Below are positions 1-38,200 of a stretch of 64,000 nt of DNA, one piece after another. Position numbers and translations under genes: made by a program. Below the pieces are notes generated by a model. The model worked only from the letters and a program-made list of their open reading frames with translations, was not told the DNA's origin and made no database searches. Numbering within the stretch: position 1 is the first letter of the stretch; each line of letters opens with the position of its first letter. This DNA is from Podarcis gaigeae (taxonomy: Eukaryota): the NCBI GenBank assembly GCA_964106915.2, contig OZ066918.1. One strand, written 5' to 3'.

Positions 1-1974
1 GCAGGATCCATACCCACATTAGGGGCTTCCATGCTTGAAAATTTCATACAGTTCTGCTAAATACGTAGTTATAGGTGATTCACCAGTTTCAAAGCTCCAA
101 CTTTAAGTGCAGCTAGCGCTAAAACCCCTGCACGTATTGTCAGCATTTCACTCTCCTGTTGCTGGATGTGTGATTGTTACATCACATGTCTGTGTTTACT
201 TTCCAGGCTTGGAAAGTGTGAGAACGGAAGTCAGTCTGATCTCTTCCGCTATATTGTACTTTTATAGTTACTTACTTTCTCTCACTCTTAGATTGCACAC
301 ACCAAAGCTTCACTTCATTTCTGCCATACTCTGCTGATTGAGACTGCACATATCTGAAGATATGTGTCGCCGGGACTGAAGATTTATGGACGTCCCAGGC
401 TGCGCTTCATCAGGAAGACGCCCAGAGAGGTTTGTCTCATTGGGGAGGGGTGTCCCCCCCAGGCGTGTTCCGACACTTATTTGTCTGACATTTGGTAGGC
501 TCCATCCAATCAGAACAGGCTACTAATCCCAGCAAATGTCATCCAATAGTGACCCCCATGCAAAAAAAAGCTGTTTGTTGATTTCCCCATGGTAGTCAGT
601 CAAGAGGCATGAAGTTCCAGCTGTTTCAAAGGCATGTTCTGCGGTGAATCAGGTGATTTTTGAGCTGAATTACCAAATCAGGAACCAAATTGAATCTTGT
701 ATTTGGTGTACACCTGTAATATGGAAATGGCAGCATGGAAATGATAGGGTTTTCTTCTCTCTCTGCTTAGCTGTATAAGCCTAGCAACAAATTAACTAGA
801 GAAAGTTAATCATTTGAATTCCCCCTATAGTCTATGGGACATAATGCAAATGCTTATAATTCATTTATATAACACCATCAATGTGAACTGAAATTAACCC
901 ACTTCTGTGGTTTCTGCCTCCTAAAAGATCATAACAGAAGCAGCAAGTTAATTACATGATGAAAAATTAAATAATTTAAGAATTTTCAAAACTTATTTCC
1001 AAAACTCTTGAAGCGAGAGTGGCTTGCTTTCAAAACACGAGTTTAAAGGTCTGAATTGTGTGTTTGTGAAAAGATTTTCTCATATTTGTAAACATTCACA
1101 TAGGCTGGAGAATCTAGGTTTTTTTCTCCTAGACAGTGCTCTACCAACATGAACAATCTCAAGGTCAATTATTTTTAAAAATGTTAAGATAACAATATGA
1201 GAATATTTGCAATTCTTGTTTCAAAGTGCAAATAGGAAGATGGATTTATTAGTATGGTGCTGATGGAATAAAAAAAAGTTAGAAATCAGTAAACTATCAA
1301 AGCTTGCCAATGTGCAGAAAACGCTGTTGTCAGATTTAAAATGTATTTTTTTCCAGATAATTAAAATGCTGGTTGACACAAGTTAGGGAAAACTCAGAAT
1401 GCTATGGAAACACCAAAAATTTTAGGTAGCAGTGTGAGTTCATTAGGAAAAAAATATGAAAAGCAACAGCAGCATGTCTTTATTGTGGTCAACTAAAACA
1501 TTACAAAATAGTGAGCAAACTTCATAGGATATCAGAACTCAATCATCAGGCTGGTTACCGTAAGTGCCAAAAGGCAGGTGGAAGCATGATGGAAGAGTTT
1601 GTAGACTGGAGATCTGAAGAGGAAAATCTCCACTCTAATTAGGTTGGATGGTCTCATCAGAGGCATACTCAAAAGCAGCATACTCAAATCTATGGTTTTT
1701 ATGTGAGGAAAATACAGGCAGCAAAGAACTCTGAAACTGTATTGGACAGACCAGAGTATGTGCAAAGCAGACCCAGCTCTACAAGTCCATAATTTTCAAG
1801 CAACAGGGCACTAATAAAAGCAATTTCCTAGCTTTCCCCACTCAACACCACCATTTGCTACCACCCAGAAAACACACAAAATATCACAAAGAGCTTCTCC
1901 ATCTCCATTCTGAATATTGTTGTCTTAAACCTGGAGATAGTACTTACCAGTCTACGGCACAGTTGTTACCAAAG

Positions 1975-2215
1975 TTCCAGTTACAGATAGGTAGCCGTGT
2001 TACAGATAGGTAGCCGTGCTCATCACAGCTATCTGCCAATCACCCATTCCCTCCACCCTTCTGAGTAATACCCCTCCCCACCTTCTCACTATATAGAAGG
2101 GTCTGGAAACTTCTGTTTCAGTGTATCTGAAGAAGTGTGCATGCACACGAAAGCTCATACCAAGAACTGACTTAGTTGGTCTTTAAGGTGCTACTGGAAG
2201 GAATTTTTTTTGTTA
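1975..2215 (+). mobile_element. Penelope-like element pLTR fragment carrying a hammerhead motif
   Basis: Flanked by an 11-bp direct repeat TGTTACCAAAG (1964-1974 / 2216-2226). Shares ...GAAAGCTCATACCAA...GTTGGTCTYTAAGGTGCTACTGG with copies at 3739-4010 and 43369-43468. Starts with an inverted, duplicated terminal piece. Confidence 0.75.
2123..2160 (+). ncRNA. Minimal type-I hammerhead ribozyme motif
   Basis: GTAT-CTGAAGA-A-GTGTGCATGCACAC-GAA-AGCT-C-ATAC: stem I, CUGANGA box, palindromic stem II, GAAA box, palindromic AGCU in place of stem III, UC cleavage site. Confidence 0.7.
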
Positions 2216-3727
2216 TGTTACCAAAGGTTTGCAAACCGTCCCAAGAAAGGTCATTCTGATGTTGTGAGGCGTGGGGGGGGGGATCTTTGTTCACTTTCCC
2301 ATAATTTTATACACTTCTATTATGTTGCCTCTTACCTGTTCTCTATACCAAAAAGTCCCAAATTTTGTACCTTTCCTCATTAGGGAGTTGCTCCATTCCC
2401 TTGATAATTTTGGTTGCCTGTTCTGAAGTCAAATGCTCAAACCTACTGATACGAAAAAAGTAAATATATAAGAAACACTATATACCCTTCCATGGTAGAA
2501 CTCTTCCAATTTTGATGTAGTCTATGGTTCCAAGAGTGGTCATAACAAAGCACCTTTTATGAAGTCTTCCGTATCTATTTAATAGGCCCTTGCTGCTGGG
2601 CTCAATGGAGTTGTGTACAGACTCTTCCTAATCACAGTGACATACATCATAAAGGCACAGGAGAAACAAAACAAGGCTAAACTGAAAAGAACATGGCAAA
2701 TTGTTACTCTCGATATTAAAGTTTCACCACTTTAACAAGAGACACTTTTATCATAACCTACTGAAGTATTCCTTAAAACATTCAGTTGTTTCAGTGACAA
2801 GAAACTTCACTGAGATGCAAATCCTTTTGCTGTTACAGCAACATCAAAAAAGGCATAAATATGACAGGCAGCAGAAAACCAAGTCAAATTAGAGAACTTG
2901 ACTTTAGATTCCAGTCTTCCCATCAAAACAGTAAGCAAAATGCTAGTTAAGGGGAGCAGTATAGAGAATCAATCTAGATTCTAATGAACAAAAGGCAAGA
3001 CTAATCACTAATCCTAATGTTTGGCTGGTACTCTTTGCTTCTGTTTAATAGAATCTAAATGCATCCTCTGTTTCCCCTTCTTTGACTAGTGTTCTGTTTA
3101 CTGTAGTGATGGGAAGACTGAAACCTAAAGTCAAGTTCTCAAACCCAGGAGAAACAACTGTCAGTATTGACTGAAGCAAAACACTAGAAAGGATTAAAAT
3201 GAAAGAAAACAATCGCAGAAAGATTTGGCAGATCAAGCTTCGCATGGCCCTTGGCAAAGTGCCCTTGATGGCTGTGGCCTTTTTTCATTTCCCACAATGC
3301 TTTTCAAACAGTGCTGCTCCAAAGCCTTGTGGGAAATTAGAACAGCTGCTGCTACCAGGTAAGCTACAGCTGGGGGTCAATCGTAGGCGTCAGTGTGTCC
3401 TGCCAGCTGCCTGAGGGTGCCAAGTACTGATGCTGGATCATGTTTGGCTGCCCTGTCTACTGTCTCTGTCTCTTGGCTGGCATCCAATGACCGATCCTTC
3501 TCTCTCTTCTGCCAGTAAAGGGGAGGAGAGTAGCAAAGCAGGAGAGAGAACACGCACGACAGCTCAGTCCAGAAGAGTCCTATTGCTGTTGTTGTCTTGT
3601 CTCTCATCAGTTTAAGAGGGAGGAGAGAAAATACTTAGATGCAGCTGCCAAAGGGCACAGCTACATTTCCCAAGCTGGTGAACTATAACAGAGCTATGGC
3701 TGCTCCTGTGTTCTCTATCCTCTAGTG

Positions 3728-4195
3728 CAGGAATGTCCAGTGTGCATGCACACGAAAGGTCATACCAATAACTTAGTTGGTCTCTAAGGTGCTACTGGAA
3801 GGAATTTATTTGTTTTGTTTTGTTTCAACTACGGCAGACCAACACGGCTACCTACCTGTAACTAGAACTATGGAAGGGACCACATTGAGCCACATGAAAT
3901 GGAAGTCCATCAACCTCACCAGGTATCTGAAGAAGTCTGCATGCACACAAAAGCTCATACCAATAACTTAGTTGGTCTCTAAGGTGCTACTGGAAGGATT
4001 ATTTTTTTTTATGAGGTTTCAACTCCCAAGAGACTGCGATCTACTCCCACTATAAAAAAAAAACTGGCAGTGATCTACCCGTTGGATTTGATTGACCAAA
4101 GTTGTTGGGCTTTTTTTGGTGGGGAATCACGCAATCAACCAGGGACGCTCCGCGATAGACCTATAGATCACGACTGACCTATTGGAACATCCCTG
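3728..4195. mobile_element. hAT-type MITE interrupted by a Penelope-like insertion
   Basis: 8-bp TSD CTCTAGTG (3720-3727 / 4196-4203); TIRs CAGGAATGTCCA / TGGAACATCCCTG. Confidence 0.8.
3739..4010 (+). mobile_element. Tandem Penelope-like pLTR pair with two damaged hammerhead motifs
   Basis: Two direct copies, offset 195 nt, of the GTGTGCATGCACAC...AAGGTGCTACTGGAAGG block. Confidence 0.75.
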
Positions 4196-4867
4196 CTCTA
4201 GTGGAAGAGGAAGGTTCCCCCAAATTGCTATTGTGGGACTGGGGCTATTATTGCTATTATTATTTATTGCGTACCCTTTACGCTGAGGTCATAGGGTTGG
4301 TTAGATACTTAAAAAACACAAATTTAAACACAGTTTAAAACAACTTATGTTTTATTCCATATTGTTTGCATGGAAATCCAGCATTATGTCTCCTTTGTAC
4401 AAAGTTCTATCCTTATCCCATCACAAGAACTTGGCATTTTAGTGCTCATATCACTGGAACCTCAAATATTTGTAGAATGTGACAGAATTCAGCTGATGAA
4501 TAGAGCCAACAGGAATAAAAGGTAGCAGTTTGCACAGAGGACAGGTGTAATGTTCCTATCAACAAATGTCAAGTTTAATAGGCAATATTCAGACTGTTTT
4601 AGATAACCACATCAACATCCAGATAAATATCTTAAACAGGGGGGGAAATATTCATCCATCAATTCAGATGACACATAGAATGTTTGCTAAAAAAAAATAG
4701 AATTTCTTAATGAATTTAAAATTTTCAAGTTGAAACACAATGTATGTTCTATACCACCAACACAAAAGCAATTTCCTGCCCGAGCACTAAACAATATTGA
4801 GCAAGTGAAAAGCAAAGGAAATTACTAAGTTTTCCCCCTTAAAATTAAGTGTTTCAATAAACACCTT

Positions 4868-5969
4868 TTTATTTTTCATATTTGCTAACATTACATTTAT
4901 TTGGTCTACCTTTACACATTTCTCTTCAGTACACGCCACACAATCAATACTGTTGTCGATTATTGAAAACCTTTGCAGTTCTTTGGTATTTTATCGAGGA
5001 GGACTCAAAACACATTATGAATACCAAATGTACAGTTCTGAAACCTGTTCAGAGACAACTTTAATCCAGGATTTATTAAAGGGCTTTCCCACTTGTTATG
5101 CTCCCTGACAAGCTGTTGCTTCATCCCGCATTCCTCTGACAGAAATTTGTTCTGGTTTAACAAATGACTGAAGGGAAATTTCATTGTGATGAATGGAGCA
5201 CCGAATATTTAGAAAGAGAGGAAAAAGCAAGACAGAAAACATCCTGTTGCTTTCTGAGATAAAATGAGGATTACCAGATGTGGAGGGGGGGCAGGCAAGC
5301 ATAGAAGCTTGCTGGTATCACAGTATCTTTTAGTATTAGCCACAATATTATATTTATAAAGAGATATAAAATAGCTACAGGTTAATATACTGCAATGAAA
5401 AGTTCTCTCAACCTAAGAATATGAAGGTTTTAAACTGCATAGACTTTACAGCAGGCAGAAGCTGATCCAACCACAGCACCCCCTGGTCTATTACCTCCCT
5501 CTTCAAGACACAATGCTGCAACAAAGCAAATAGCAAAAATAATGTGGACATTGCCACCAAAAAAAAAAAAACCAAACCACTTTTTTTCCAAAAAGGCTAC
5601 TCATCCAGTGACAAGCCACTATGTAGAAGACCAGCAAATAGAAGCTATCACAGTTTTATTTTTAATGAAAAAATTGAAAGTATACAGAGGGGGAATCAGA
5701 AGCAGCAGCAAAAAAGTGATAGAAGTCCAGTGTTTAAGAAACTTCTCTAACCTTCTCATATTCCACTAAGCAATACGGGGACTGTTCTTGGCATACCAAA
5801 ACTCCCTCTAAATCTAATAATCAAAACACACCTCTTCTGCTGCAGGGCCATAAATGTATTTGATTTCTGCAAATCCAGTCTCCCAAGTTGTATGGAGACT
5901 TCCACATCCCAGGCTGGTCACTACTGTCAAACTAAAATTTTATTTGGCTTAACCTTTTCTACTCTCCCT
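4868..5969 (-). other. SEC23IP: Probable non-coding terminal (3'-UTR) exon of SEC23IP
   Basis: Strong minus-strand acceptor T26-GCAG at 5999-5970; donor TTT|GTAAGT at 8552/8551; minus-strand AATAAA at 5072-5077, 4896-4901 and 4868-4873. The 3' end is uncertain. Confidence 0.5.
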
Positions 5970-8578
5970 CTGCAAAAAAAAAAAAAAAAAAAAAAAAAAT
6001 ACAGAAAGATCAAGCAGTTTGTAGCTGCTCTCTATGATACAGAGCTGAAGTTCATGTCGCAAGCATTTGAAAACACTCTCCCTCAGAGGCTCAGAAGATA
6101 TTTCATTATAAAATCTTAATGGTAGGCTTACCAGGTGCAAGGAATTGCTTTATTTCAACAAATACAAATGGATGGATGTAAATTTGTATTAAAGTAGTTT
6201 GAACTTCACAGTTCTTGCAGAAGTGGGACAAATGGTCTTTTTATTAAACGAAAAGGTTGTTATTGCTGTTTACCAATAATATTTCTTTTATAAAAACAAA
6301 CAAACCACAGCCCTTATGGAAAATACAAGTCTGATATATCAGATTATAAAGATTAATTTGCATGCCACACATTTCTTGAAGGGTCATTTATGTTTGGCAA
6401 CTCTTCCACAAATGATTCAAGGCTGGTTTTTTTAAAAAAAAAAAAACAGGTATGTGTACTCTGAACAGTAGGCTTCATTTTCTTTTCCTCCACCCCAGTT
6501 AATAAAAAAAGAAAGAAAACAAAAGTAAAAAATGATGGTATGGAATCTGAGGGCTGTAGATTGAAACCACTTCTGTCATCTGTGATGAGGGAATTGGAGT
6601 TGCCTCTTCAAAAGGTTGTTGGCAGGACAGCAGAAAGATTAGAAAGGCTGGAAGGAAGAGTAAAAAGAAAAGAAGTTGTAATCTATGGCAAACTTGGTTA
6701 GTTTCACAGCTTATGTAAAGGGCTACGACTATCAAGTTAACATGAACATGTATTGAGGCAAGAGGGAGTGCTGTATGGGCAAATGGGGAGAGGCTCAGGC
6801 TGCCCTGTGCTTCAAATGGCCAACTGCACTACTTGTAGAATGTAGGGCCCATAGGGAACCTTTGAGAATCCTGTACAGACACTGTGTGCATCTGGTGAAC
6901 TGGGTATGTTGCATCCTGATGCAGTATAACAATAAGGAAAAAAAACACTGTCAAAATGCACTCTTATTGAACAGCCAGGAAATAAACTTTTAAAGAAGAG
7001 TGTGCTGTCCTTTTTGAAGCAGCCCAGTAATTGTAGACAGCTGGAAAGCCTCTCTCTCCGCCCCCCAACCTGATGGCATTTATATTTTTACCTATGAGCT
7101 CTCTCACAAGGAGATAGCACAGGATCTGCCAACCCCTCCAAAAAGTTATTATTTGTGTACATTGGATGAGTTTACATTTAAGTTATGCATAAGATCAGAG
7201 ACATTTATCTGCATATTTTAGATGTAGCTTCACTTAGCAAGCAAAGCATGAATATGTCATGAAGCAGCATGAAACAGCATGGTATGAGCCAAACTGAGTA
7301 TATTTCACTGAGTCCTGGGAATAATTTCTAGAGCTATGTTTTATTTGTTTACCAGAGCTGCAACAAGTACAGTTAAAAGAAAATATTAAGATATTAAACA
7401 AATGATGCTTAATATTTGATACCCTGGTTCCATAGTGTGTTTAGGGAACCTAACAGAGCCACCCAATTACAAAGTATAAAACAAACACCAAGCACAGTTC
7501 AAATCATTTAAATCTACACACAAATGCACACAAACTGAGACATTTCCCTTGCTAAACAATACTACTATGTCAATTGAACATAACAGATGAGCTGAAATAC
7601 TTGATAACCCATTGAATAATAATTAAAACTAAGTTCAGTGTTTCAGAATTTAATTCAGCAAGGGTATATGTATACATTTAGGATTTATTTTCTGCTGCGT
7701 TTCCCTGCCTCCTTCTCTAACCTGAAGCTGTGAAGAACTAATTTCGAAAGAGAGACGCTATCTAGCTCCTTGCTAGCACAGATGCTGGCACAAATAACAG
7801 AAGTTAATCTCATTCCTGGCTAGTATGAACTTGCAAGTCACTAAAATATGAGCACCACAAAATTACTTTTGCCCACTGCAATACAATGACTTCCATCTTT
7901 TAAACAGATCCCTTACTTATGCTCTCATAGTTGCTGGGAGAGGGGGGGATCACACTGTCATATTTTTAACAATGCAATGCTAAACAGATACCAGAGCTGT
8001 CATAAGCTTGAAATTCCTTTGACAAGGGCTTTAGGTGTTGCTTCAGTGCAGCTTATGCATGCAGTCATAAAAAGATGCAGAAGTTCTGATTTCAATATTG
8101 CAAAGCAGCACAGGAAACTGGAAGCTTGAAGCATTCCCACTTTTTCTTTTCACCACTCTCACAAATATCCAAAGCACATTGTGGATTTGCAGGGTAAGTA
8201 GTAGTCTAACTGCTTCATAGTCCAAGCCACAATCATGGAGAAAGGAAGAAAATGACTTCTAGTATCCTGCCTACTGAAGTCACCTGGAAGGCTGGGATAA
8301 GGGAAATGGCCTTATGCAACTGGATGGGACAAAAAAGTCTACTCCAGGTGCACTTTTCATTGCAAATGCTACACATAAGGAGACCACCTAAGATATTGTC
8401 ACCTGCACACAAGGGAACAAAGTCTCTAAGTTTCAGCCATATAACATTCTCACATCAATAGGAGCTCTCATCACTTCCCTATTCTACAAAAGGAGAGTTG
8501 TACTCTCAAGTAGGGACAACCTGTGCTGCGTTTATATTGAGGATTACTTACAAATTCTGAATGATGGGTATCCATACA

Positions 8579-10083: not shown

Positions 10084-13000
10084 CAAGTCCTTGTCCTTAT
10101 TTTCTCCACCAAACCCCACTGCTGTAAGCAGCTCTGATCCTGTGGTGTGCCTGCAAAGGGCAGCATTCCACTGGAGAGTGCAAATTCTGTGCTTTGTCTG
10201 GACTGCAGTATGTGGCATTTCACATTAACCTTTTGTGACTGCAAACACTGCACTGGTACAAGCAGAGGGAACTCTTGTAGGTTTACCAACAAGACCACCT
10301 TGGTAGAATGACCGGTCTATCCACTTTCTGCCCTATGCCACAGACCAGAAAACTCTGTTGTACATAAATTTATTCTAGCCCTGAGAAACTCAAGCCAGAC
10401 TAAAAACATTATAGTGAAAAACTCTTTTATCTGGTGCAAAAACTGATCTTATGAACAAAATAAGATGCAACCAATGTGTGGGTATTCACATGCAGCAAAC
10501 TGCGTTGTATATTTGCTGTAATGTTCTGATCCTCAGTGTGGCAGGTGCAACAGTCAGAACAAAAATACAAGTAGCTACCCTCCCAACACCAGCATCACTG
10601 TTGCTTATCTAGATAGGCCTGAGGCAGGGTGGGGGCAAGATCAGGGACATGTGGTTGCACCAGCAAGAGTGACCCTGTCAATCCAGCATGTTCAGCGGTG
10701 CAACCACATGGCCCCGACCTCACCCCCACCCTGCCCAGGTTAGCAGCAATGCCCGTGATGGCTTCTCACCACCCGCTCCTGCACTGCTCCTGCATATAAG
10801 TCCCAAAAAGGCTATCAAAGAAACAGCTAAAATAAATGCAGGAAAGAATGTGAAGCTGTGTGTCATATTAGAATAAAATATTATTACCAGTAGCACAAGT
10901 GACTCTGTAGAGCAAACAAATACTCGTTGAAACTTTCTATGGGTTTTTCTTGCAGCACATAATCAATACGTCGTCCTCCATTTAGCAAACCAACTTTTAC
11001 AGCCAAGTCTTCATCTTTTGAAAGATCTGGGCTTTCAACGATCTTTTCTGTGGCAGCAGAAGGAAACAGAGCATGAAAAGTACATGGTAAATTGAATCTT
11101 TGATGAATTCCTGGTTCTGCCTTTCTGCAGTCTCTATTACACTTTATCCGTTTTAAGCTTGTTGGAATATTGTCTGGGTTGTTACAGCTGTGGGTTCCTC
11201 CTATTATCTACACAATGTGGGAAGGGCTGTAAGCTCAGTAAAGCATCTGCCTTAGAAGCAGGTCGGATTCAACCCCCTGATATCTCCAGGTAGGGCTGGC
11301 AGAGTCTCCTGACTGAGTCCCTAGAGAACTGCATCCCATCATCCCTGACCACTGGTCTTGCTCAGCAAGATGGCCCAATGGTATGTCACTACGAGGCAGC
11401 TCCTATGCGTTCCTAATAGTAAAAAACAGAAGCATAAGTTACGGGAGGTCAAACTTTCAAAGTATTTAATAACAGAACAACAGCCAATATTTGTGTGGTG
11501 TTTCATCATATTAGCTCAAATAAAGTAACAGTCAGAATAGTCTGCCATAAAAGCCAAAGCAAAAAGCTTCCCAAATACAAATTAAATTCTGTGGCTTGTT
11601 TCAGTTACCAAAAGGGATTCTGTGGTTGTGTTTCTCAAACTGCAGGCCTTCATACTATTTTACAAACTACACTTAAAAACTGAGGGGAGGTTCAAAAACA
11701 GTTTGCGGCAAGGAACAGTAGGGACTGTTAATCAAAGAAAAAAGCCAAAACTCCCATCAGGTTTCCAGGACCCATCAAGCCCTTCAGTACTTGTCAATAT
11801 TAATATATTATTTCCATCTGATTACTCTAGCACAAATTCTGATGTTACCAAAAAGCTTTTGCGGCTTTGACAAAAGCAAGGAAAACAGTGGTAAGCCATA
11901 TTAATCACAGACAGGATGAAGCTGGCAAACTGCTGGTCACTCAGAAGAGTATCATCTAGAGACAGTATTACAAGGGCAATTTATTTCAAGAGATATACCC
12001 CACTTTCATGTGGTCTGTACATGAAGTTTTTACAGCTAGCAAGGGGATGCTTGCAATTTGGCCAACAAAAGTTCAAAAGACACAAAGTGAAAAATGTTAT
12101 TGACAAAACTCTCATTCAGACAAAGTGTTCAAAGTAAAAATAAATTTAAAGATTATATGTTGGGGGAGTTACCCAGAGGCTACAGGGTTAGATATTCAGA
12201 ATGATAGGTAAGAATCTGAATCAAGCTTAACTTCCTAATACAAAGGTAATAAAACTGGGGCACGTCCCAGTCACTTAACATTTACAGTAAGGTAAAGGTA
12301 CCCCCGCCCGTACGGGCCAGTCTTGCCAGACTCTAGGGTTGTGCGCTCATCTCACTCTATAGGCCGGGAGCCAGCGCTGTCCACAGACACCTCCGGGTCA
12401 CGTGGCCAGCGTGACATTTACAGTAATTACTGAAAATATAATAGCCATGCAACAACTAACCGTCTGTCTCATCTTTTTCTTCTTCCTGTTTTATCTGATG
12501 AGCTACCTTCTCCAGTTCTGCTTGGAGCTGAATGGAAGATGTATGAGCACGTGCAAAGTCATTCAGGGTTTGCCAAGCACTTTTCAACGAGCTGATGAAA
12601 CCCTGTTTCAGGTCTGATCCCATTCGAGAAAGAGAGTCCTTCAATTCTGAAACAAGAACCATTCTCCAATAATTAGAAATGCCACAGAAATGATGAATTG
12701 TAAGACAAGCATTATTCCACAGGCACCAACTTATTTAGAGCGCATTTAGGAATATAGCTTCTATGAAATGAGCTATTCTGCCACCTTCAGGACAGATTTG
12801 TGTTGTAGAGGTACTGAAGTTCTAAAAGGAACTTGAGACAACTAGTACTTTGGGCAGCCGATACCAAAAAAATGAAATGCATTAAAAATGCAAGGACAAT
12901 ATCCTCAAGCATCCCATGTTATCACAATTCAGTAAAGGTAAAGGGACCCCTGACCATTAGAGGTCCAGTCATGGCCTCTGGGTTTGCGGCACTCATCTCA

Positions 13001-16000
13001 CTTTATTGGCCAATATAGTAGTTGATACTATTTTACAGCTGAAACTTTTTCCATGTGTAGAAATTAAGAGAATTATCTCACTACAAACAATAGGGATTAT
13101 ACAGCTGCCACCACATGCACAGCACTGCAAAAGCATTCATAAAGAGATATAACAGAATATGATCACCATGTCTCCTTACCCATTATATTAAGAGATGTGA
13201 AGACCCCAAAATATTTTTGTTCTGCAAGGCCCAGTGTAGAGGGAAATGGTAAACTGAGAGGGAAAATTGTGAATGGGGAAAGCCTTATGACACATCTGCT
13301 CCTTCAGAATGGTGAGTGAAATTATGCAAAATTTTATTTCTGAGAATGAACCTTCTTCTGTTTGTGTATTATAATCTATAACAATGGTGGAAAACTTCCA
13401 GCCCATGGGTCTAATTAGCCTGTGGGGCCATTTGGGGCAAACCATAGTCACCTGACATCATATGACAACAGGTGTGGAGATTTGTTATCTGATCCAAGCA
13501 TCTCAAAGGTTGGAGTTGATGCCTCTGCTGGTTCCTGTGCTGTCTCTGCCTTTTGCCTTTTACTGTCAAAAAGCAAGCAGGTGCTTCTCTTCAGTCTTAG
13601 TGGTCACACAGAAGTATGACTAAAGGTAAGAAAAATGCTGCCAGCTCTCTGACCATAAAAGGCAGCATTTTCACTACCCTCAATATTCTTCCTTTGCAGA
13701 CACAGCGTGGACACTGAATCACCTGACATCAGGTGATGGACAGTTGAGTGGTCCTGCCCACCTTCTCAAAATGACCCGTGAAGTAGTTAGCCAGTTCTGG
13801 ATCCAGCCTTCTGACTAGATCCCTATATTAGAAAATATATGAATACACTTTATTTACCAAGATGAAGCCTTTTTCTGCCTTTATGATGTGGAACAAGAAC
13901 TGGTTTTACGTCCAAGTCAGGAATAATCATAGGTTCTAGCCTATAAGCAACTGGATCGAGCTGGAAACAAGAAAGAAAGCAGTGATCAATCTAAACATCA
14001 ATCTTGTGGGAGCCTCACATGACCTTTCCCAAAGCCAGTTAAGGAAGGGGACTTAAAAAGCTCTTTCCACAGGAGACCTATTTCTAAAACGAATACTTAA
14101 ATAAAATTTAATGATGCAATAAAAAAGTATGACCATAATCCAGTGCAGAGATGCAACAAACTTAAAACTGCAGTCCTATACCTACTTGCCTGTAAGCCCC
14201 ACTGAGCAGATATGTATATGTACTGCACTGCTATTCCACTGGTTTGCAGGCCCACTGTATGTTACGGGGCTTAAGTAATTATCTTAACTAAATATACATT
14301 GGTACAGAAGTACCTGAAGGTGTGCTAAAAATCCGTTTCAGCCTAACAAATTGTTTTCCTGAGCTTTTAAAAAGATCCAATTAGGTGTTAAATAGATAGT
14401 CAGTCTATAGTCCTTTCGCTGAAAGTGATTGAAAACCTGTGCTTCTCACTAACCGGATGATAGATGTTGAAAAATCCCTTGCAAGTGGGGAGCCTGTAGT
14501 TTTCATCGATTTTTCCCACTCCTCTTACAGTGAGAAATACACCAATTGGCGAACCCAGAGCAAAGAAATTGTCTGGCTCAAAGTCAAGTGCACTATATAC
14601 CACAGACACCTAGAAGACAAAGAATTAAAAAAGAGATGATTAATACCTCCTTCATATGTCAGTCAGCCCACTTGAAAGCCACAGGTGTATCCCACAAGAC
14701 AGATATAAAGGTCTCATCTGATACTAACAAGCCTAGCAAAAACATATTTTATTAAAAACAGTGTTTCTGAGGAATGGATGGTATACAAATACCATATACT
14801 TCCACAACTGAAGTGAATCATCCATTCTCTGGGCCAGGATCCCACCGCTTCCATAACATATGACCCCATCATCATAGCACCAGTTCTGTGAATGGGGTAT
14901 GTGTCAAAAAAAAAAGGCAGTTCCATCAGTGAGGACTATTTTAACTTGCATAAAACTTACCTGACCAGTGCCCACTTCAAAATATTCATAATCTATGTTG
15001 GCAGAGGAAACTGAAGCTCCAACTGGAAGTCTTTTCTTGGATGGATCCTGGAGCATACCAGATTCTGAAGGTGAAGCAAAACTGACTACTTTCTTTGCTG
15101 CCTGCGCAGCCTCTTCCTGTGTCCGCATCATGGCTTCAATTGCTGCCTTTTTCTCCAATGCTGCTTTTCTCTGTTCCTATTGATGCAAAGATTTCAAAAG
15201 CTTTGGAGGAACTTTGGAGGAGGGGAAAGAAACCACCCCCCTGCTATGTCCTATTTAGTTTAATTATTGTATTGTATTATTGTATTCAACCAAGTCTTAA
15301 CTCACTCAAATCACCTTTTAATATTCATTCATTTTAAAATATTTACATTCCGTCTTTAGTGCCCGAGGCAGCATACAAGGCAAAATAAGAAATAAACCTC
15401 AAGAAGTCTACATAACATTACAAGTCAATTAGGTCCATATCAGTCAAATCCCACTAAAAGCTTGGCACAGTGTTCAAATGGTGCTTATCAGGAAGCAAAA
15501 ACAAATAGCCATGCAGAGGGTGTATCACACTCTGGGTGCTGCAACACAGGAGGCCCTGCCTTCATAGCCACATAGGAGCTGAACGTTCTTCAGATCCTCT
15601 GGCACTCAGAGAATACAGCACTTGATGGTTCACAACAAACACTTTGGACTGCATTCAGAAACAAACTAGCAGCCTAGTAAGATCTTTAAGCGCTGAAATA
15701 ATATGATCCATTTGCACTCGATTCTGCTAATCTATGGCTCAAGCCACCCTACACAATTCAGGAAAGCAAGTCATGAGGCTAGATCTCATGCCCTGTATCC
15801 ATGGCTCTCTTGACTCAACACATCTGAACATTTCACATTAAAGAACTACCGTATTGGCCCGAATATAAGCCTCACCTTTAAAATTCATGGGGGGGGGGGA
15901 GAGAAAAAAAAGGCAATACCAAAATATAAGCCGCTCCCTTAAAATTCCGCAGGCACTCACACCCGTTCCATTTTACCATATGTCTGTTTCAGCAGCAATA

Positions 16001-22000: not shown

Positions 22001-25000
22001 AATATAACGCCCATCATTTCTGACCACGCCAAATGGGTTTCATGGGACTTGGACTTAAGCAACATCTGAAGAGCCTGAGGATTCCTGACCATGTGTTAAA
22101 TGCTCTGGGGAAAGGTTCCTTCTCCAATCCAGTCTGAGGCCTTGCCACAAGAAACCAACCAGCATGGCCAATTGGCTTCCAGAGCAGGACCTGAACTACA
22201 GCACAACTTGCCAGCGAACTACACTGTTAACTGCATAGAGGCGGAAGATCCCCATGTTCCCTCCTCACCCCCCACACAACAGACACAGGCTGGTAGCAGG
22301 GACCCACAGCTAAATTTTAAAAAGGAACAAGCTTAGGAAAGTGACAGATTTTAATATAAATATTTATTGCCTTCAGATCATATCTCTAAAGGTGCATTTG
22401 TCTATTTCCATATTTTTTTTGTTGTTGTTCACCGCTTGGAGGACCATTTGAGATGAGGAAGCAATTTAAAACTTGTAATATTAATAAAGTAAGGAATAGA
22501 TGGGAGGGTTCTCCTCCCCCAAATAAACCTGAATTTATCTCCATGGAACTACCTCATTAGGCCCCTTGCTGGCAAAGTCAAATCAGAAAAGTCCAACAAA
22601 CTCTGCTACACTTAGGGCATGGAAAAAGTATGGTCCTCATTCTACCCCATTATTTATTAAAGGGGAGGGATAAGGTAATATGAGAGCCCTCTGTCCTAAA
22701 CCACTCACCAACTGGAATTTCCTCATGATCCTCATCAATTCCACGTTTTACCACTCTTGGCCTAGTCTGCCCATCTTGTATGGTACCCCATTCATCTGGT
22801 ATTGAAGAAGGCTGGAACTGAACTATAACCTGAAAAAAATCAGTGGACAACACACTACATTTAAACACTTGGAGTTGCAACCAGAGGTGCATTCAAGGAA
22901 AAGGGTGGGTGGAAAATGACTCTTCTGCATCTCTAGCCCCCAAGGGTCAGGAGATCCTGCAGAGTGGGATCAGTTGTGGCACTGAGGAAGAGACTATGAG
23001 AAATTGGAAGTGGAGGCAGTCACCTTCTGTGAACAGAAGCTCAAGTTACGCTGAGTTTTACATACTGCTCTAACCACACATGCAATGCTATTGTGCAATA
23101 AAAAATCTTATTACCTTAGGATTATGCATAACAATAGTTTCTCCACTTGGAAATTCCAGTCGCCGATGCCACTGATTTGTGGTAACAGCTTTCTTATACT
23201 CTGCCTGGGGGAAAAACAGTTTTGCAAAATCACAAAGAAACTAAGCATCAAGATGTCATGTCAAAGGACAGTGCCATAAACAGCTTATACCACATTCATT
23301 TATTGACAATCCTGTAGTATCAAAACTCCAATATTTTTAGTTTAGCTTGCACAACAGAACTTCCCTATCCTCTGATTCCCTCTGTAGTCCCTCATGTCCT
23401 TGAAACCTCCTCTGGAGGATCCCTCCAGCTTGCTGCCAGTACATATTGGGGGGCATGTGGTGGGGGCACAGAGGGGAGGGGGGGAGAGGGAAGTCATAAC
23501 ACATGAGCAGAAATCTATTCAAACAATGCTGAATGCCACTGTGTACATTACTGTTTCCATGTACTTATTCAGTGTTTTTCTAGCCTGCTTGCTAACCCAA
23601 ATTCCCAAGTTGGCCTGCATTTTATAATACAGAGTAGGAGCAAAAGGAATATGTATGTTTTCCCCCAGGCCTTAGATATTCTGCTACTCTGAGGCTGAAT
23701 CTCAGAGTAGGTTGAGCATCAACATAAAGTTCAATTTACCCCATTTAAAGACAAATAGCGGTAGTGCAGAACATCCTAATCTCCTTTATGTTTATTAGAA
23801 ATATCAGTGAATAACCAGGACCATGTGGATGAAGCACACTTCACTGATCTTACAACAGTATTTGAGATGCAAAATAATAATAATAATGTTGGTCATTGTA
23901 CAACACCACCAGCAGTAACAATAGCAATAATACAGACCGGGATTTCTTCCACATTTTATCAACACTCCACAGTGAGTATTTTTTATCTTCCCATAAAATC
24001 TGAGCCCTTTCAAATTTCAATTTTCAGTAAGCCATCACACACATTTATTATGCAGTCAATTGAAGAAGAAGAAGAAGAAGAAGAGGAGGAGGAGGAGGAG
24101 GAGGAGGAGGAGGAGTTTGGATTTGATATCCCTCTTTTCACTCCCTTTAAGGAGTCTCAAAGCGGCTAACATTCTCCTTTCCCTTCCTCCCCCACAACAA
24201 ACACTCTGTGAGGTGAGTGGGGCTGAAAGACTTCAAAGAAGTGTGACTGGCCCAAGGTCACCCAGCAGCTGAATGTGGAGGAGTGGAGACGCGGACCCGG
24301 TTCCCCAGATTACGAGACTACCGCTCTTAACCACTACACCACACTGGTGTACACTCACCTCTAGCTTTTCGCTGAAATCCTCAGTGTAAGGAATAAACTT
24401 GCTGTCTTGATCTCCCTTATAAAACCAAGTACATCTTCTCACTTCAGATGGCTCTTCTTCCCAGTATACAGCTTTCCTTACTCGGTCATAGAGATAAACA
24501 TCATAACGTCCTCCGTCAGTACTAAGGACAACATTCTCTGGATCAGGTTGCACTAGAAGCATTAAAAAATGTTTTATTAGCTTGGAATCCTTCAATTGAT
24601 AAGCTAACACATATTTAGAAACAAGAAGGAAATATTCACTTTTCCTTCTCTTCAAATTTTATATTAGAACAATGAAACAGAGAGGTCAAACCAAATGTGT
24701 TACTGGGAAACTTGGCACTTTTGAAAGATTTCTAGACTTGTCACTGCATGTCTCTTTTCCCAGTTGTTCCACTATGTTCACTGGTGTGGATCCGAATGTA
24801 GGCAGTATAAAACACAAGCATTCTCACAGGCAATAATTCTGTGATATGATTGTCATCTTCAAATATCTGAAGTGCTGCCGCCTGGAAGATGGAGCAAGCT
24901 TGTTTTCTGCTACTCCCAGAGGGAAGACCCAAACCAATGGATTGCAATTACAAGAAATGAGATTCTGATTCAACATTAGGAATGACTTTATGACAGTTAA

Positions 25001-28000
25001 GAGCTGTATGGCAATGGAATGGACTCCATCAGGAGGTGGGGGACTCTCCTTCATTGGAGGTTTTTCAAAAGGAGATTGGATGGCAATCTGTCAGGGATTA
25101 TTTAGTTATGATTCTTGCATTCCAAGGGGTTTGGACTAGATTACCCTAGTTGGGATATCTTCCATTTCTACAGTTCTGTGAACTGGCTACCAGCAAACTA
25201 TGCCTTTCTAATTGCTCACATAGAAGTTGCCAAGATGAATGAAGCAAAGAGCTGCCTATGAAAACAAAATCAGGACATGGGATTTATACACAAAAGTGAA
25301 TCTGAACGTGGAACTGAACATATATCACGTTCCCATTTAAGAAACACCAGCATAAGAATATGTAAATATATGCAAATGTATAGAGAAGTCTTCTTCAGCT
25401 TGGTGCCTTCCAGATGTTTTGGACTGAACACTGGTAACACTGTCTGCGGCTGATTGGAGTTGCAGACCAAAATGTCTGGAGGGTACTAGATTGGGACGGG
25501 TTAGTATTTCTGCCTTCTCATTGTAAACCATCAGCAATTTGTTATTCCTCTTTATTTTCAAAGCCAAAAAGCCATCACATAAATGAAAAGTGCAGAGGTC
25601 TTACCAGAGTTATAAACTTCCTCTAGTGTTGTAGAATCTAGGACACTGAATGGCATCCATAGCTCCTTGTTTTCCACCTCCTTGCAATAAAACCAATGGG
25701 GCTGAACTGGCTCATATTGGTTATGTAGTAAGATGGGAGGTGCTTTCACCAAAGGGCCTGCTGACAGGGGAGCCACAGGCGGCATTGGTGACTGAGGCGA
25801 AGAAAACTGAAAATGAAACCAGTTTAAATGTATACAATTCTTAATTTTAAAAGGTTATTATAAACACAAAATCCACTGCCCTCCAGATTACATTGATCAT
25901 GTACATTATTATCATACATTTATTAAATTCTAGAATTGGTCAGATCCAACAAAATGATCCTTAGATTCTTCATTCCATACATCTGATTACTATGTCATTA
26001 AATACAAGCTTGATTCAGAGTGAGGTGCCTTCTCCAAAGCTCTCTATCAACATCTACCGTATCTAACCGAAATCTGGGTGCGTCCTATGGGGCGAATGCA
26101 GGCTTTCGCTGAAGCTTGGAGAGCCAGAGGGGTTGGTGCGCACCGAACCCTCTTGCTCTCCAGGCTTCAGGAAGACATCCGCAGCCTAGGCAGCCCGGCG
26201 GGAGTTCCCGCATGGCTGTCTAGACTGCGGATAACAGCCTGTTTCCCGGAGCGCCGGGCGCGCTGAAAGCAGAGCGCCCGGCGCTTCGAGAACACATCCA
26301 CAGCCTAGGCAGCCCTGCGGGAGTTCCCGCAGGGCTCCCCAGGCTGTGGATAGCAGTGTGCTTCCGGGCGCACGGGGCGCCCTGAAGCAGAGCGTCCCAC
26401 GCGCCTGGCAGACATCCGCAGCGTGGGGAGCCCTGCAGGAGTTCCCGCAGGGCTCCCCACGCTGCGGATAGCAGTCTGCCGCCCAGCGCGGGGCGCGCCC
26501 TGAAGCAGAGCGCCCTGAAGCAGAGCGCCCCTCGCGCCGGGCAGGCATCGGCCAGCCCCACAAGCTCGGGGGACAGCGGGGAGGAACAGCGCCGCCATCC
26601 CGCTGTTCCCCGACCTGGTTTTGGGGGAGAAATAAAGGAAAACATTTTTTCCTTTATTTCACCCCAAAAAAACTAGGTGCGTACTATGGGACAGAGCATC
26701 CTATGGGATGAAAAATACGGTAATTCAGTGTAGGTTTCAAATTTATCAAGTTTAATGCAAAACCTAATTTGTGTCTGTATATGTAGGCATGTTTGGGTCA
26801 AATATTTTCTAATGTCTATCATTTGATTTGCTTAAATATCATCAATACTCTCTTCCCTGATGGCTGGTGCCAGTTCACAATTATTCTGGTACTACAGTGC
26901 TGCTGTTTTATAGATTACTTTATTTCTACTTTTTCAATGAAAAGCAGTCTAGAAGTGATTTTATTAACAAAAATTAAGAATATTCCATATAATCAAGAAC
27001 AATCTTATTTTCCTATTTTATCTTTGCCCTGTGATCTGGCAGTGTTCTGTAAAGTTTCAGGCAAAGTTAGAGGGTTCCAAAAGGAAGCTTTTGTAGCATA
27101 ACTCTCATTGTTCATCATACTAAATTAATGCTTTAAAATACTGCCATTTCTTGTTTTGTCTGTCAACTGATCAATATTTTCCAATTCTCTTTCCCTCCCC
27201 CTGAATTTAGTAATTACTACTTTGAACCAATGGAGGTTCTGGAAGATGCAGGGCAGGGCAAGCTAGGTCACGAGAGGACCCTTAAAAGTTTTATACCAAT
27301 TCCAAAAGCTAAAAATCACTTTCCGTACCGGTGGCAGTGTCCCTGGAGTCGCATACATGTGCATAGGTGGTACAGAGGCTGGAGGCTGAACGTTCTGGGT
27401 GGGTGTTTGTGTCTGTTGAAGTTGCGGTGGAGTGATGTAAGGATTAGCTCTACTGCTTAAAGTAGTATGGCGATATGGGTTGTAGCCTTGCTGCGATATG
27501 GCATGAGGAGGAGTTGAGAAGCCAGCTGGTGGAGGACCAGTGTATGAACCAATTCCTGAAGCAGGCGGCGCATTAAAAGGCTGTGATTTGGAAAGAGGAG
27601 CTGAGAAAGCATTTGGCCCATCTTGTGATCCAGGCAGAAGTGGGAGAGAAGCTGAAGTCTTAGAGAAAACAGATGTTCCAGCTTGGGGTGGGGATGTTGC
27701 GCCTAAGGATGGCTGCCCAATGCTTCCAAAGGGATCACTGCTGCTAGGAACTTGGGAGAAATAACTGAAAGTTGGCGGGGGGTTAGGATTTGCAGAAGTC
27801 TGCCCCAGGAAGCTGTCTTCTTCACCAACATCAGTCGTATCATCTACAACAAAGGATACAAGGATTACTGAAAGAAAGGGAAGCTTATGTGGAGAAACTA
27901 TTGGTAGTACTGTCCGTTTTAAACATTTCCCCCAAAATAGGAAAATTTATCCAGTCCCGTTCCTTTCTTGTTCACTGCAGCACATTATCTTGGAGAACTG

Positions 28001-35200: not shown

Positions 35201-38200
35201 CATTCCCTATCTCTAGTCTAAATATTCAGTTTGCTTAATTTAATGCAGTAGCATTTTTCTTGTTCATGAACTCCAGCAATTGGTATTCAGAGGCATGCTG
35301 TCTCCAAAACTAATAAATGTTAGCCTTACTACTTGAATCAAGCTCTTTATTTTTTCCAATAACTAATGCTATCTGACAATATTCTTGCAAAAATTGTGTT
35401 TGCAGTTAAGTCAGGATTCTATTTTATTGCCCAAATACATTGGATTCTTGAATGTTCTAAAATAGTTCAATTTCATTTGGTTTTTTCCTAGCTCAAAATA
35501 GTCTGAATCCTGAATGGGAGAGAAAAGTAACGGAATACTTCAGAGAGAAGCTGAAAGAAAATAATGCTACTAACTGGGTAAAAATGGGCTTACTTATTTA
35601 CATATCTAGGTCCTACCCTTTTGCTTTGGTGGCAGTACACTTGTGTTTTACACAATATCTTCCTGTAACATTGCTTTAAATAAATTTGCAAACTGAACTG
35701 AGAAAAACTACTAAAAGGATTTTAAGGCTCCAAGCAGATGGGCGGAGCAGTCCTAACCAAGCAGATACAAAGGCGTATCTCGGTATGTTAAATTGCATTC
35801 TAACTGCTCCTGCTTGATGGGGTGCAGGGGAAATGCAAACCTTCATTTTCTATCCTTTCATTGACTCTTATTCGGGGAATTTAGTTACACCTGCATTTTA
35901 GCTGATGTAAATTACACCAATCTCTGTGGGTAAAACCAATGAATTAAGGGAGTTGTGATGCAGCATAAGATTCTTTATCCCTCTCCCTGCACACATTTCC
36001 CATTCTTGACATGCCCCCTTTTTGCCCTTTACACCAGCATAACTTAAGCCGATTTAATTTATGCCACCAGGGCTTTCCTTCAGCCGGTGTAAACAGATAC
36101 ACTGGGGTAATTTATTTACATCAGCTTAAGGGCATCTCATTTTGGGAGTGGGACGACATACCACATCCTAACTTCTCCCACTTGGCATATCTGATGTTAG
36201 GGTTTCACTATAAGTGCAATAGGAACTGAAAATCTTTATTAGAGAAGAGCAAAGTTAACAGACTATAACTTCATTGAAAAGACAGTAAGTTGAATGCACC
36301 TCTAATTATATTCCCCACGTATAACTGGGACTTGTAGGTATTGTTAACCTCATGATAAGACACAAAAATATAAAAAATAAGTAGCTGGTGGAGGCTGGTC
36401 AGAGTTTTTGTTAATTCTACTATAGAGATTTTGAGCAGGAATAGTCAGGATGCAGAATTGCCTACTCTGCCTGTTTAATTTCATTGCATTGGTAGCAGTG
36501 TTTCTTAGCCTCTAGGACAGGCATCCCCAAACTCGGCCCTCCAGCTGTTTTGGGACTACAGTTCCCATCATCCTTGACCACTGGTCCTTTTAGCTAGGGA
36601 TGATGGGAGTTGTAGTCCCAAAACAGCTGGAGAGCCGAGTTTGGGGATGCCTGCTGTAGGATAAGTCTTCGCAGTGGCATACTGTAGAAGAGGGGGCCAC
36701 AAACCCTTTTGAACTAATGGGCAAATTTTGGATTTTGAGAGAGCATTGTGGGTGCCAGTCACAACATGGCTGCCATGGGAGATGGATATGTCATAACACA
36801 AAATTAGAATATAATCATAGCGAAGCTTTTCCCACAAATGTATTTCCATACTAGGAAAAGCTTACCCTGTCAAACTTCTGCCTTATAGCTGTTAAAGGCA
36901 CAACCTTGCTTTTCCCCTGTGCCAACTTTACCTAACGCCTAAGCTGCCAACCTGTACCCACCTACCTGGGAGTTTAGGGTAAAAACATGTTGTAGGTAGA
37001 ATTAGACATGAACACAAAGGGGAAGTCACATGAGCATACCAGATTAGAATAATAAGCATTCCAGAAAGAGCACTATTTCTGATGACAAGTTGTTTGAATG
37101 ACACTCGGTGTTGGCTTAGTTGAGATTAAATATTTGAACATCAGTGTTCTCTGGTAAATTCATCCCCATCCCCAAAGTACAAAAGAGTAAACTGAAGTGT
37201 GATTATAGCTCAGCAGCTTGATAGCCTGAGAGACTGGATAATTGGCAATTAAGCCTTGTAATGAAGGGCATACAGTGAATTCAGAAAACGAAGGTTTGAA
37301 TGGTGACAGTACCGTGCTGTATTAATACAGTTTTACTGTTTATCATTGTTATTCAAAATGATATGGATCTGTTCATGGCTCTTAGCACCTGCATTTATCA
37401 AAAAGAAAAGTAGATGTTAGCAGAAGTGGTTTAACCAAAGAGCCACAGCATTTCCCAGGTCAAAATCTAGCAGTAAAAGACTTCTAAAAAGCTGGACCTA
37501 TCTTAGAAAACACATCTGTATATCTATTATACCGGTTATCTATTATACACAGTATTAAAAATATTGTGAACTTGACAACATTTTTTTCTCCACTGGCTGA
37601 TGTAAACAAACAATAAGGCTGCTGCTAGATTAAAAAAATATAATGTATATTCTTTAGTATAGATTGATTTCCTCATGATTCCTAATTACTATATAAATTA
37701 AGATTTCATTAGAGAGTAAAATTCTGTATATGTCACGTGAAAGTAGTAGTATTTCAATATTATTATTTTCTTCTACAGGTGCCTTCATTGAATGATGTCC
37801 CTCTACATTATCTGAAGCCAAACAGTTTAGTGAAATTTCGCTGTATGGTTCAAGATATGTTTGATCCTGAATTTTATATGAATGTTTATGAAACAATTGA
37901 CATACATACTAAATCATGTGTAAGTGGTTCTTCTTTATTATGGTCCTTATTGCTTTCTCACATGCACAGATACGTGCTCTCTCTGTGTGTGCTTGCCTTA
38001 CTAATCAGCCATGATTTATGGTGGCCATCATCCACCTCCTCTCTCAAATCTTCTGCTTATTGTTCCATGTCACATGGGGCTTTTGCAGAAGTTCGACAGA
38101 GGGTGAAAGAGGGGGGGAAACCCAGCCACTTCCCTTTCCACAACTCCTCCTGACACACACAGGGTATCAGCAACCAATCCATGCTTTTAAAAATCCATCA

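What the first reader, a model, noticed from the sequence alone, without database searches (positions are those of the whole stretch)
2123..2160. Intact minimal hammerhead ribozyme motif in a Penelope-like repeat
Seen: GTAT|CTGAAGA|A|GTGTGCATGCACAC|GAA|AGCT|C|ATAC. Stem I (GUAU/AUAC) and the CUGANGA and GAAA catalytic boxes are present, stem II is a perfect 14-nt palindrome, and stem III is reduced to the palindrome AGCU before a UC cleavage site. Established: Penelope-like elements carry minimal type-I hammerheads of this kind, which can cleave as dimers, and an extra A after A9 is tolerated in natural hammerheads. Inference: this is the only copy in the window with all core nucleotides and stems intact, so it may still self-cleave after C2156. 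Because both stem II and stem III are palindromic, an intermolecular double hammerhead is plausible.
Basis: partly seen in the sequence, partly recalled or inferred. Interest (0 to 1): 0.7.

Follow-up and report, generated by a model that had tools for sequence, protein, structure and literature searches.

The report
Penelope hammerhead copied from uncut RNA
This is a real but already described kind of self-cutting RNA motif, one of 9,021 identical copies spread by a Penelope-type jumping gene; this lone copy likely does not cut, and the ends of its sister copies show the element likely copies its RNA mostly uncut, from a start just in front of the motif.

Summary
The 38-nt motif is present exactly as described. 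It is a minimal type I hammerhead in the pseudo-LTR of a young Neptune-type Penelope-like retrotransposon (910-aa RT plus GIY-YIG frame found elsewhere in the genome). It is the family's standard sequence: 9,021 exact copies. An older family in the genome keeps the core, with compensatory stem changes. The window copy is a dead 5'-truncated insertion with an 11-bp target duplication. Cleavage at C2156 is unlikely: its only near partner lacks G12, it has no tail, and a downstream segment is predicted to mask its catalytic box. The more informative result is genome-wide. 5,146 copies begin 0-3 nt before stem I, 31 nt after a TATA box, often with an extra untemplated G (69 of 100). Only 153 of 14,229 differ at the cut site. 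So the enzyme likely runs off the capped front of an uncut RNA. The motif class was published in 2014. The scan has noted the same motif and the cap run-off pattern before in other genomes (unreviewed AI notes). Ordinary as a motif; a modest mechanistic lead.

The parts
2123..2160 (+). Minimal type I hammerhead: stem I 2123-2126 with 2157-2160, CUGAAGA 2127-2133, extra A 2134, stem II 2135-2148, GAAA 2149-2152, palindromic AGCU 2152-2155, predicted cut after C2156
   Evidence: Sequence; descriptor scan; 9,021 exact copies
2018..2214 (+). 5'-truncated pLTR of a Neptune-type Penelope-like element (offsets -105 to about +90 from G2123); ends in the T-run, without the tail
   Evidence: 98.4% identical over 193 nt to the full-length copy L138
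1975..2018 (-). Inverted copy of the element's tail (first codons of the ORF), with a 19-bp tandem duplication
   Evidence: Blast to L138 offsets +107..+139; tandem repeat 1980-2018
1964..1974 (.). Left target-site duplication, 11 bp
   Evidence: Identical to 2216-2226
2216..2226 (.). Right target-site duplication, 11 bp
   Evidence: Identical to 1964-1974
2035..2122 (+). Predicted Pol II core promoter: CCAAT box 2036, C-rich box 2071-2079, TATA run 2090-2099, initiator-like 2117-2122; inferred starts at 2120, 2121 and 2123
   Evidence: Positions; TATA register at 2092 lies 31 nt before G2123 and the one at 2090 lies 31 nt before G2121; 5' ends of copies pile up there. Motif names from general knowledge; activity untested
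2175..2191 (+). Segment predicted to pair either with stem I plus the CUGA box (2180-2191 with 2123-2133; ribozyme masked) or, in copies that have the tail, with the tail (2175-2182; ribozyme free)
   Evidence: ViennaRNA ensembles; prediction only
3739..4010 (+). Older short tandem: truncated hammerhead + tail + first ~90 nt of the ORF (3739-3921) joined to a second copy starting at the hammerhead's first base (3923-4010); both hammerheads defective
   Evidence: tblastn to ORF residues 2-35; one of 34 such joints in the genome
43369..43464 (-). Older short copy starting at the hammerhead's first base after an extra G; A6C and G12A

Best explanation
The motif is the minimal hammerhead of a young Neptune-type Penelope-like retrotransposon, sitting in a dead, 5'-truncated insertion that likely does not self-cleave. 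Shown: the sequence, its place in the pLTR (the ORF start lies about 60 nt past the cut site), its copy number, and a sharp 5' boundary of copies 0-3 nt before stem I with extra untemplated letters. Inferred: a TATA/initiator promoter in the pLTR starts the RNA at 2120-2123, so the hammerhead is the very front of the transcript. The element's RT starts at the T-run or at the end of the tail (about +90 or +130), runs to the capped 5' end, often copies the cap as an extra G, then folds back or jumps template. This yields thousands of 90-135-nt stubs and inverted pairs. Because these cDNAs cross the cut site and reach the cap, their templates were uncut. Cleavage is inferred to be rare, and to need a second intact hammerhead or the element's protein, most plausibly on the full-length RNA with a hammerhead at each end, 3,010 nt apart.
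For: Element: L004 and L136-L138 carry RVT_1 and GIY-YIG Pfam matches (E 1.1e-6, just under the curated cut-off, and 1.4e-5) in a 910-aa frame with a C-x4-CxxC linker; L138 has the motif at both ends. Hammerhead under structural constraint: older family and one old copy give 3 of 10 pairs with two-sided changes and 85.7% of cells paired, core columns invariant. 5' ends: 2,539 copies have a non-template base right before G2123, 2,111 before G2121, 496 before A2120, 5,146 in all, against 9,021 exact 38-mers. 34 of 150 copies not chosen by a 5' pattern end at -3..0 and 2 of 150 at the cut site. The letter before G2123 is G in 69 of the first 100 listed (hand count; about 30 expected; p 1e-15). 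Contigs of another organism show the same single G or T inserts at 2123 and 2121 (table 5c). Only 153 of 14,229 copies have a non-C at C17, and 12 of 30 inspected are point mutants. Literature: monomer inactive, dimer weak (PMC4209133); the anole Poseidon hammerhead needs protein, is dispensable for insertion in vitro, and unprocessed RNA is the main template (PMC11167929); an untemplated G is attributed to cap copying in L1/SVA (PMC3287187).
Against: No start site or cap was observed in RNA: in four RNA runs of a related organism no pile-up of molecule ends was listed at the inferred start or at the cut site, and such libraries are poorly suited to show either. The extra letter before G2121 is T in 79 of 100, not G, and before A2120 it is A in 60 of 100; the cap model does not explain this. 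The G could partly reflect 1-nt microhomology with the inverted arm. Counts are arms, not events (inverted pairs count twice); the three patterns differ slightly in length; 3 of 70 inspected boundary loci were point mutants. Junctions at the cut site (about 0.65% visible, 0.83% corrected) are somewhat above neighbouring positions (0.40%, 95% range 0.21-0.70%), so a small cut class is not excluded. Covariation is weak (7 related sequences, three stem II pairs fixed by my search pattern; 10-52 of 500 shuffles reach the observed values). Absence of subfamily-diagnostic changes in the motif (0 of 9) is not significant (p 0.066).
Confidence: 0.8

Rival explanations
1. The window copy is an active ribozyme: it is transcribed from its own promoter and cuts at C2156 as a trans dimer with RNA from any of the other intact copies, or with help from the element's protein.
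For: All core bases are intact; the copy retains the whole predicted promoter; 9,021 identical partners exist; protein-assisted cleavage is shown for the anole Poseidon hammerhead (PMC11167929).
Against: No tail, so the predicted masked fold dominates (P(stem I) 0.002-0.013) and the ORF-start region that the anole protein is thought to bind is absent; the stem II duplex out-competes the double hammerhead; the neighbour at 3923 lacks G12; RNA reads of a related organism do not cover the unique flanks 1001-1500 and 2501-3500 (that organism may lack the insertion).
Confidence: 0.12
2. Cleavage is a real step, but only in the rare route that makes full-length copies: both hammerheads of the 3,010-nt RNA pair, cut and ligate to a circle, and RT around the circle rebuilds the promoter-bearing 5' pLTR. 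This can coexist with the best explanation.
For: Core conserved between families; L138 extends 233 nt upstream of the inferred start, which a linear start-initiated RNA cannot template without a jump; L136 and L137 are almost exactly one unit long (5' ends +91, +81; 3' ends +73, +93); model proposed in PMC4209133; slight excess of junctions at the cut site.
Against: Only 4 near-full-length copies among 10 examined, none starting at the cut site; template jumps from the 5' end are frequent anyway (34 joints to ORF +180..190; L298 jump to +867) and could give the same structures; hammerhead mutants insert normally in vitro in the anole element (PMC11167929).
Confidence: 0.35
3. The sharp 5' boundary is a splice acceptor or an RT stall at the folded hammerhead, not a transcription start.
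For: The bases before 2122 resemble a pyrimidine tract plus CAG, and in D. virilis Penelope an intron ends at stem I (PMC4209133).
Against: A spliced template would carry one constant upstream exon; the 70 boundary loci inspected have varied upstream sequence. A stall would fall on entering the stem from its 3' side, not after leaving it. The two main peaks are 2 nt apart and each lies 31 nt after a TATA register.
Confidence: 0.12
4. The short copies are an independently spreading non-autonomous element (a SINE-like stub or a 190-nt retrozyme).
For: More than 14,000 short copies against 10 that hold ORF position +243; 34 short tandems of about 190 nt, with a 193-nt back-joint also seen in RNA reads (7 and 12 reads).
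Against: The tandem joints come in many different forms, mostly as dimers or trimers, which points to repeated independent jumps rather than one founder; stubs that begin at the start site lack the promoter.
Confidence: 0.1

Closest known systems
[quoted passage not shown]
   Same: 4-bp helix I, long helix II, unpaired base between A9 and G10.1, G10.1-C11.1 pair, palindromic 15.2-16.2 without loop 3, location in pLTRs, mostly as solo truncated copies; reported there for turtles and snakes.
   Different: No structural difference of kind. Added here: position at the inferred transcription start, the 5'-end census, and the predicted tail-dependent fold.
Poseidon element of Anolis carolinensis (PAc; Frangieh et al. 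2024, PMC11167929)
   Same: pLTR hammerhead, optional tail inside the ORF start marking RT start sites, unprocessed RNA as main template.
   Different: This element is Neptune-type (C-x4-CxxC linker). Its ATG lies about 60 nt past the cut site, whereas in PAc the ORF starts at stem II. No biochemistry here.
Neptune-clade EN+ Penelope-like elements (Craig et al. 2021, PMC8557442; Arkhipova et al. 2013, PMC3846280)
   Same: RT then C-terminal GIY-YIG, Zn-finger-like linker, pLTRs, inverted 5'-truncated partner, 30-40-bp tail; TATA plus initiator-like motif in the pLTR as noted for rotifer Penelope.
   Different: Clade assigned from the linker motif only, no tree; no 5' UTR intron found between the inferred start and the ATG.
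Non-LTR retrozymes (Li et al. 2026, bioRxiv 10.64898/2026.07.22.740005)
   Same: Short pLTR-derived tandem units with a hammerhead; about 190 nt here, reptile average 176 bp there.
   Different: Here only 34 joints of varied form, so they look like repeated template jumps, not an amplified family.
Untemplated 5' G of full-length L1/SVA insertions (PMC3287187, citing earlier work)
   Same: Extra G at a fixed 5' boundary, read as a copy of the cap.
   Different: Here it marks 90-135-nt stubs from internal RT initiation near the RNA's 5' end, and a second boundary carries T instead.

Membership tests
Minimal type I hammerhead (min-HHR) | Core C3 U4 G5 A6 N7 G8 A9 ... G12 A13 A14 A15.1 ... U16.1 H17 | tested here: met
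   invariant between two families except N7 and H17
Minimal type I hammerhead (min-HHR) | Helix I of 4-5 bp, helix II closed by G10.1-C11.1, unpaired base after A9 | tested here: met
   two-sided changes at 3 of 10 pairs among 7 sequences
Minimal type I hammerhead (min-HHR) | Palindromic 15.2-16.2, helix III only possible as a dimer | tested here: met
   AGCU in both families
Minimal type I hammerhead (min-HHR) | Self-cleavage 3' of H17 | not testable with these tools
   Needs an assay; genomic junctions at the site are rare
Rfam hammerhead families | Score at a family's gathering threshold | tested here: not met
   No match at gathering or to E=10
EN+ Penelope-like element | Single ORF with RT and C-terminal GIY-YIG | tested here: met
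   (in copies elsewhere in the genome; the window copy has no ORF)
EN+ Penelope-like element | pLTRs as partial tandem, inverted truncated partner, optional tail | tested here: met
   L138; 48 of 97 sampled copies with tail, 49 without; window anatomy
Neptune clade | CX2-5CxxC linker between RT and EN | tested here: met
   C-x4-CxxC in the L136-L138 translations; criterion from PMC8557442 passages
Neptune clade | Placement in an RT phylogeny | not tested
   No reference set was fetched
Non-LTR retrozyme | Amplified tandem array of one fixed hammerhead-bearing unit | tested here: not met
   Window copy is a monomer; 34 genome-wide joints differ from each other

The most novel reading that the evidence does not exclude
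In Neptune elements the hammerhead is the first fold of the capped transcript and is gated by the tail: without the tail a conserved downstream segment masks the catalytic box, and with the tail (the RT start site) that segment is captured and the ribozyme is freed. Cleavage is thus coupled to the RT loading site and reserved for the rare route that makes promoter-bearing full-length copies, while more than ten thousand stubs are fossil strong-stop cDNAs that ran off the cap of uncut RNA.
Probability: 0.25. Interest if true: 0.6.

Novelty: new member of a known kind. Interest (0 to 1): 0.3.

Why it matters
As a motif it matters little: this class was described in 2014 and the window copy is one of 9,021. 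What could matter is the fossil record. The role of hammerheads in Penelope-like elements is still open (PMC8557442, PMC11167929). Here thousands of insertion ends map the likely transcription start to the first bases of the ribozyme and show that most templates were uncut, in line with the one in vitro study, but in a different clade and in vivo. With a young family, intact 910-aa frames and a predicted tail-dependent fold, the question of when the ribozyme cuts becomes directly testable.

Tried and rejected
Rfam: no hammerhead match. Run search: no RNA holder listed; not used as evidence. RNA reads of a related organism laid on L138: both orientations about equally over the motif, 88-91% running on into other sequence, so they mostly come from copies inside host transcripts; uninformative on start or cut. 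A first fuzzy search timed out and was replaced by blast and a Hamming scan. A look-alike at window 55577-55610 has a CUGAUGA box but fails the descriptor: rejected. Splice-acceptor reading of the boundary and back-splice origin of the 190-nt tandem: rejected, junctions vary. Fold-back through stem I as the source of the extra G: rejected, as none of 19 G-preceded loci continues with the predicted letters. A function for the stem II palindrome in dimer formation: rejected; it appears instead as a fold-back point of inverted pairs (7 of 102 rows at +12). Mapping 5' ends of full-length copies: only 10 copies hold ORF +243 and 4 are near full length, too few. The masked fold was not predicted for the two older-family copies folded (L303, L306), which weakens the switch idea. 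No genome-wide count for positions next to the cut site was made; the background comes from 150 local copies only. Sequence look-up in earlier findings: nothing.

Full report
Observation. Stem I is 4 bp, stem II folds as 5 bp plus a CAUG loop, AGCU is the palindromic stem III and C2156 is H17. A minimal-hammerhead descriptor finds only this copy in the window. In 1,437,951 bases of fetched loci (overlapping and enriched for the family) its 326 hits all belong to this one family, and two shuffles of 643,664 bases give none. Rfam has no matching model. The other three window copies are defective.

What it belongs to. The window lies in a 1.51-Gb assembly, likely a lizard (inferred; repeat names recalled, no call names the organism). 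The exact 38-mer occurs 9,021 times, the control 0 times; a 30-nt anchor just downstream occurs 16,709 times. In L004 the same pLTR follows a frame with RVT_1 and GIY-YIG matches. L138 is a full partial tandem: pLTR with hammerhead, ATG about 60 nt past the cut site, 910-aa ORF with a C-x4-CxxC linker, second pLTR with hammerhead, unit 3,010 nt. The linker marks the Neptune type (PMC8557442 passages). Only 10 copies hold ORF position +243 exactly, 4 of them near full length. The window insertion is 1975-2214: inverted tail, then the direct pLTR from -105 to the T-run, flanked by an 11-bp duplication at 1964-1974 and 2216-2226. It lies outside the neighbouring gene: RNA reads of a related organism cover unique sequence from about 4,000 onward in one orientation, which in the usual stranded libraries means a minus-strand transcript, antisense to the motif; the unique flanks at 1001-1500 and 2501-3500 have no RNA depth.

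Is the structure under constraint? A pattern that forces a change at the fourth pair of stem II found 6 places: one old copy of this family with a compensatory pair, and five copies of an older family with the same core, a changed stem I pair and a non-palindromic loop II. On these 7 sequences 85.7% of cells pair and 3 of 10 pairs change on both sides; slid controls give 19-46%. This is supportive but weak: few related sequences, three pairs fixed by the pattern, 10-52 of 500 shuffles reaching the values. Among 16 older copies 9 subfamily-diagnostic columns lie outside the motif and none inside (p 0.066).

Would this copy cut? In the dimer model each cut site is served by the partner's core (from the fold in PMC4209133). 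The neighbour at 3923 lacks G12, so a cis dimer could at best cut the neighbour, not C2156. The homodimer's best predicted fold is a 14-bp stem II duplex (-28.0 kcal/mol) rather than the double hammerhead (-11.1). In context, 2123-2133 is predicted to pair with 2180-2191, masking the CUGA box (P(stem I) 0.013 from 2123, 0.002 from 2120). In the family's RNA that includes the tail, 2175-2182 pairs with the tail instead and P(stem I) rises to 0.73 (0.39 with 190 nt). The window copy has no tail. These are thermodynamic predictions without tertiary contacts, and two older-family copies did not show the masked fold.

What the sister copies record. In 102 tail-anchored rows (97 distinct) 5' ends cluster at the first bases of stem I. 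With an exact backward walk on 150 copies from loci not chosen by a 5' pattern, 34 end at -3..0, 2 at the cut site, 51 run 55 nt or more upstream (inflated by loci chosen for the ORF) and 20 are other subfamilies that fail at once. Genome-wide, 2,539 copies have a non-template base before G2123, 2,111 before G2121 and 496 before A2120. Of 70 such loci inspected, 3 were point mutants. At the cut site only 153 of 14,229 copies have a non-C; 18 of 30 inspected are true junctions, several by microhomology through stem I. That is about 0.65% (0.83% corrected for hidden C), against 0.40% per neighbouring position (95% range 0.21-0.70%): at most a small excess. The two main boundaries are 2 nt apart and each lies 31 nt after one register of the TATA run (2092 and 2090), with CCAAT and C-rich boxes upstream. 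The letter before G2123 is G in 69, A in 17 and C in 14 of the first 100 listed (hand count). An untemplated G is the accepted mark of cap copying in L1 and SVA (PMC3287187 passages). Before G2121 the letter is T in 79 of 100, untemplated in several ORF joints; this is unexplained. Contigs of another organism show the same single-letter inserts. 34 short tandems join ORF +180..190 to the boundary in many forms, including the one at window 3739-4010.

Mechanism. Shown: anatomy, counts, boundary, extra letters. Inferred: transcription starts at 2120-2123; RT starts at the T-run or tail end (48 of 97 copies with tail; internal initiation shown for the anole element, PMC11167929), runs off the cap, then folds back or jumps. 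These templates were uncut. Copies that run upstream of the start come from the 3' pLTR and are compatible with uncut read-through RNA or a re-ligated circle, so a role for cleavage in the rare full-length route stays open.

Comparison and novelty. The motif meets every sequence criterion of the min-HHR of Cervera and De la Pena; activity is untested. It is a new member of a known kind. I found no paper describing cap run-off at the hammerhead of Penelope-like elements in searches, but the library lacks most subscription journals, including the promoter work on Drosophila Penelope. TATA plus initiator motifs in pLTRs are noted in PMC3846280. Papers seen: PMC4209133 and PMC11167929, parts 1-2 of 4 of the text, no figures (three supplements of the latter searched for six terms, no hit; its Fig. 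S2 on copy ends could bear on the claim and was not seen); bioRxiv 10.64898/2026.07.22.740005, abstract, Results part 1 of 2, Discussion; PMC8557442, PMC3846280 and PMC3287187, passages only. Unreviewed notes of this scan report the same motif and a cap run-off pattern in other genomes, and in one genome many copies at the cut site; I reached my reading before seeing them, and they prompted the background estimate.

Verdict. Observation confirmed; interpretation partly supported; interest 0.3.

Noticed in passing
window 4000-32000 (minus) and 37713-38153 (plus), 61431-62600 (minus): Host exons: a WWE-domain exon at 24233-24658 and an MCM_bind exon at 37713-38153. The order fits SEC23IP, MCMBP and INPP5F (names recalled, not from a call). 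RNA depth at 4001-7000 looks like a long 3' UTR ending near the tandem copy at 3739-4010.
   Followed up: partly
G000 genome-wide; loci L246-L265: Copies that begin at G2121 carry an extra T in 79 of 100 cases, untemplated in several ORF joints. Possibly terminal addition of A, or misreading of a modified cap-adjacent A; unexplained.
   Followed up: partly
L216-L245; window 3900-3935; L298: 34 joints link ORF +180..190 to the 5' boundary, suggesting a third RT start or RNA 3' end near +185; L298 shows a jump to +867 and L299/L300 to +522.
   Followed up: partly
L102 4760-4850 (reverse strand; G000:C1:5570058-5570137): Two intact hammerheads in direct tandem only 42 nt apart: a natural dimer and a ready test substrate.
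   Followed up: no
G000:C1:9791983-9792243 (L272): Four hammerhead starts about 75 nt apart in direct tandem.
   Followed up: no
L301, L303-L306: Relics of an older Penelope family with the same core, stem II GTGG..CCAC and a U at position 17; two keep the downstream segment conserved with this family.
   Followed up: partly
window 26164-26530: GC-rich tandem repeat, period 118, 3 copies, 81% matches.
   Followed up: no
window 12289-13011: Another high-copy repeat, heavily represented in RNA reads; likely a Sauria-type SINE (name recalled).
   Followed up: no
L299 and L300 (C32:7.01 Mb and 7.82 Mb); L154 (C29:38.15 and 38.17 Mb hits): Identical insertions with identical flanks at two places: segmental duplication or assembly duplication.
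   Followed up: no
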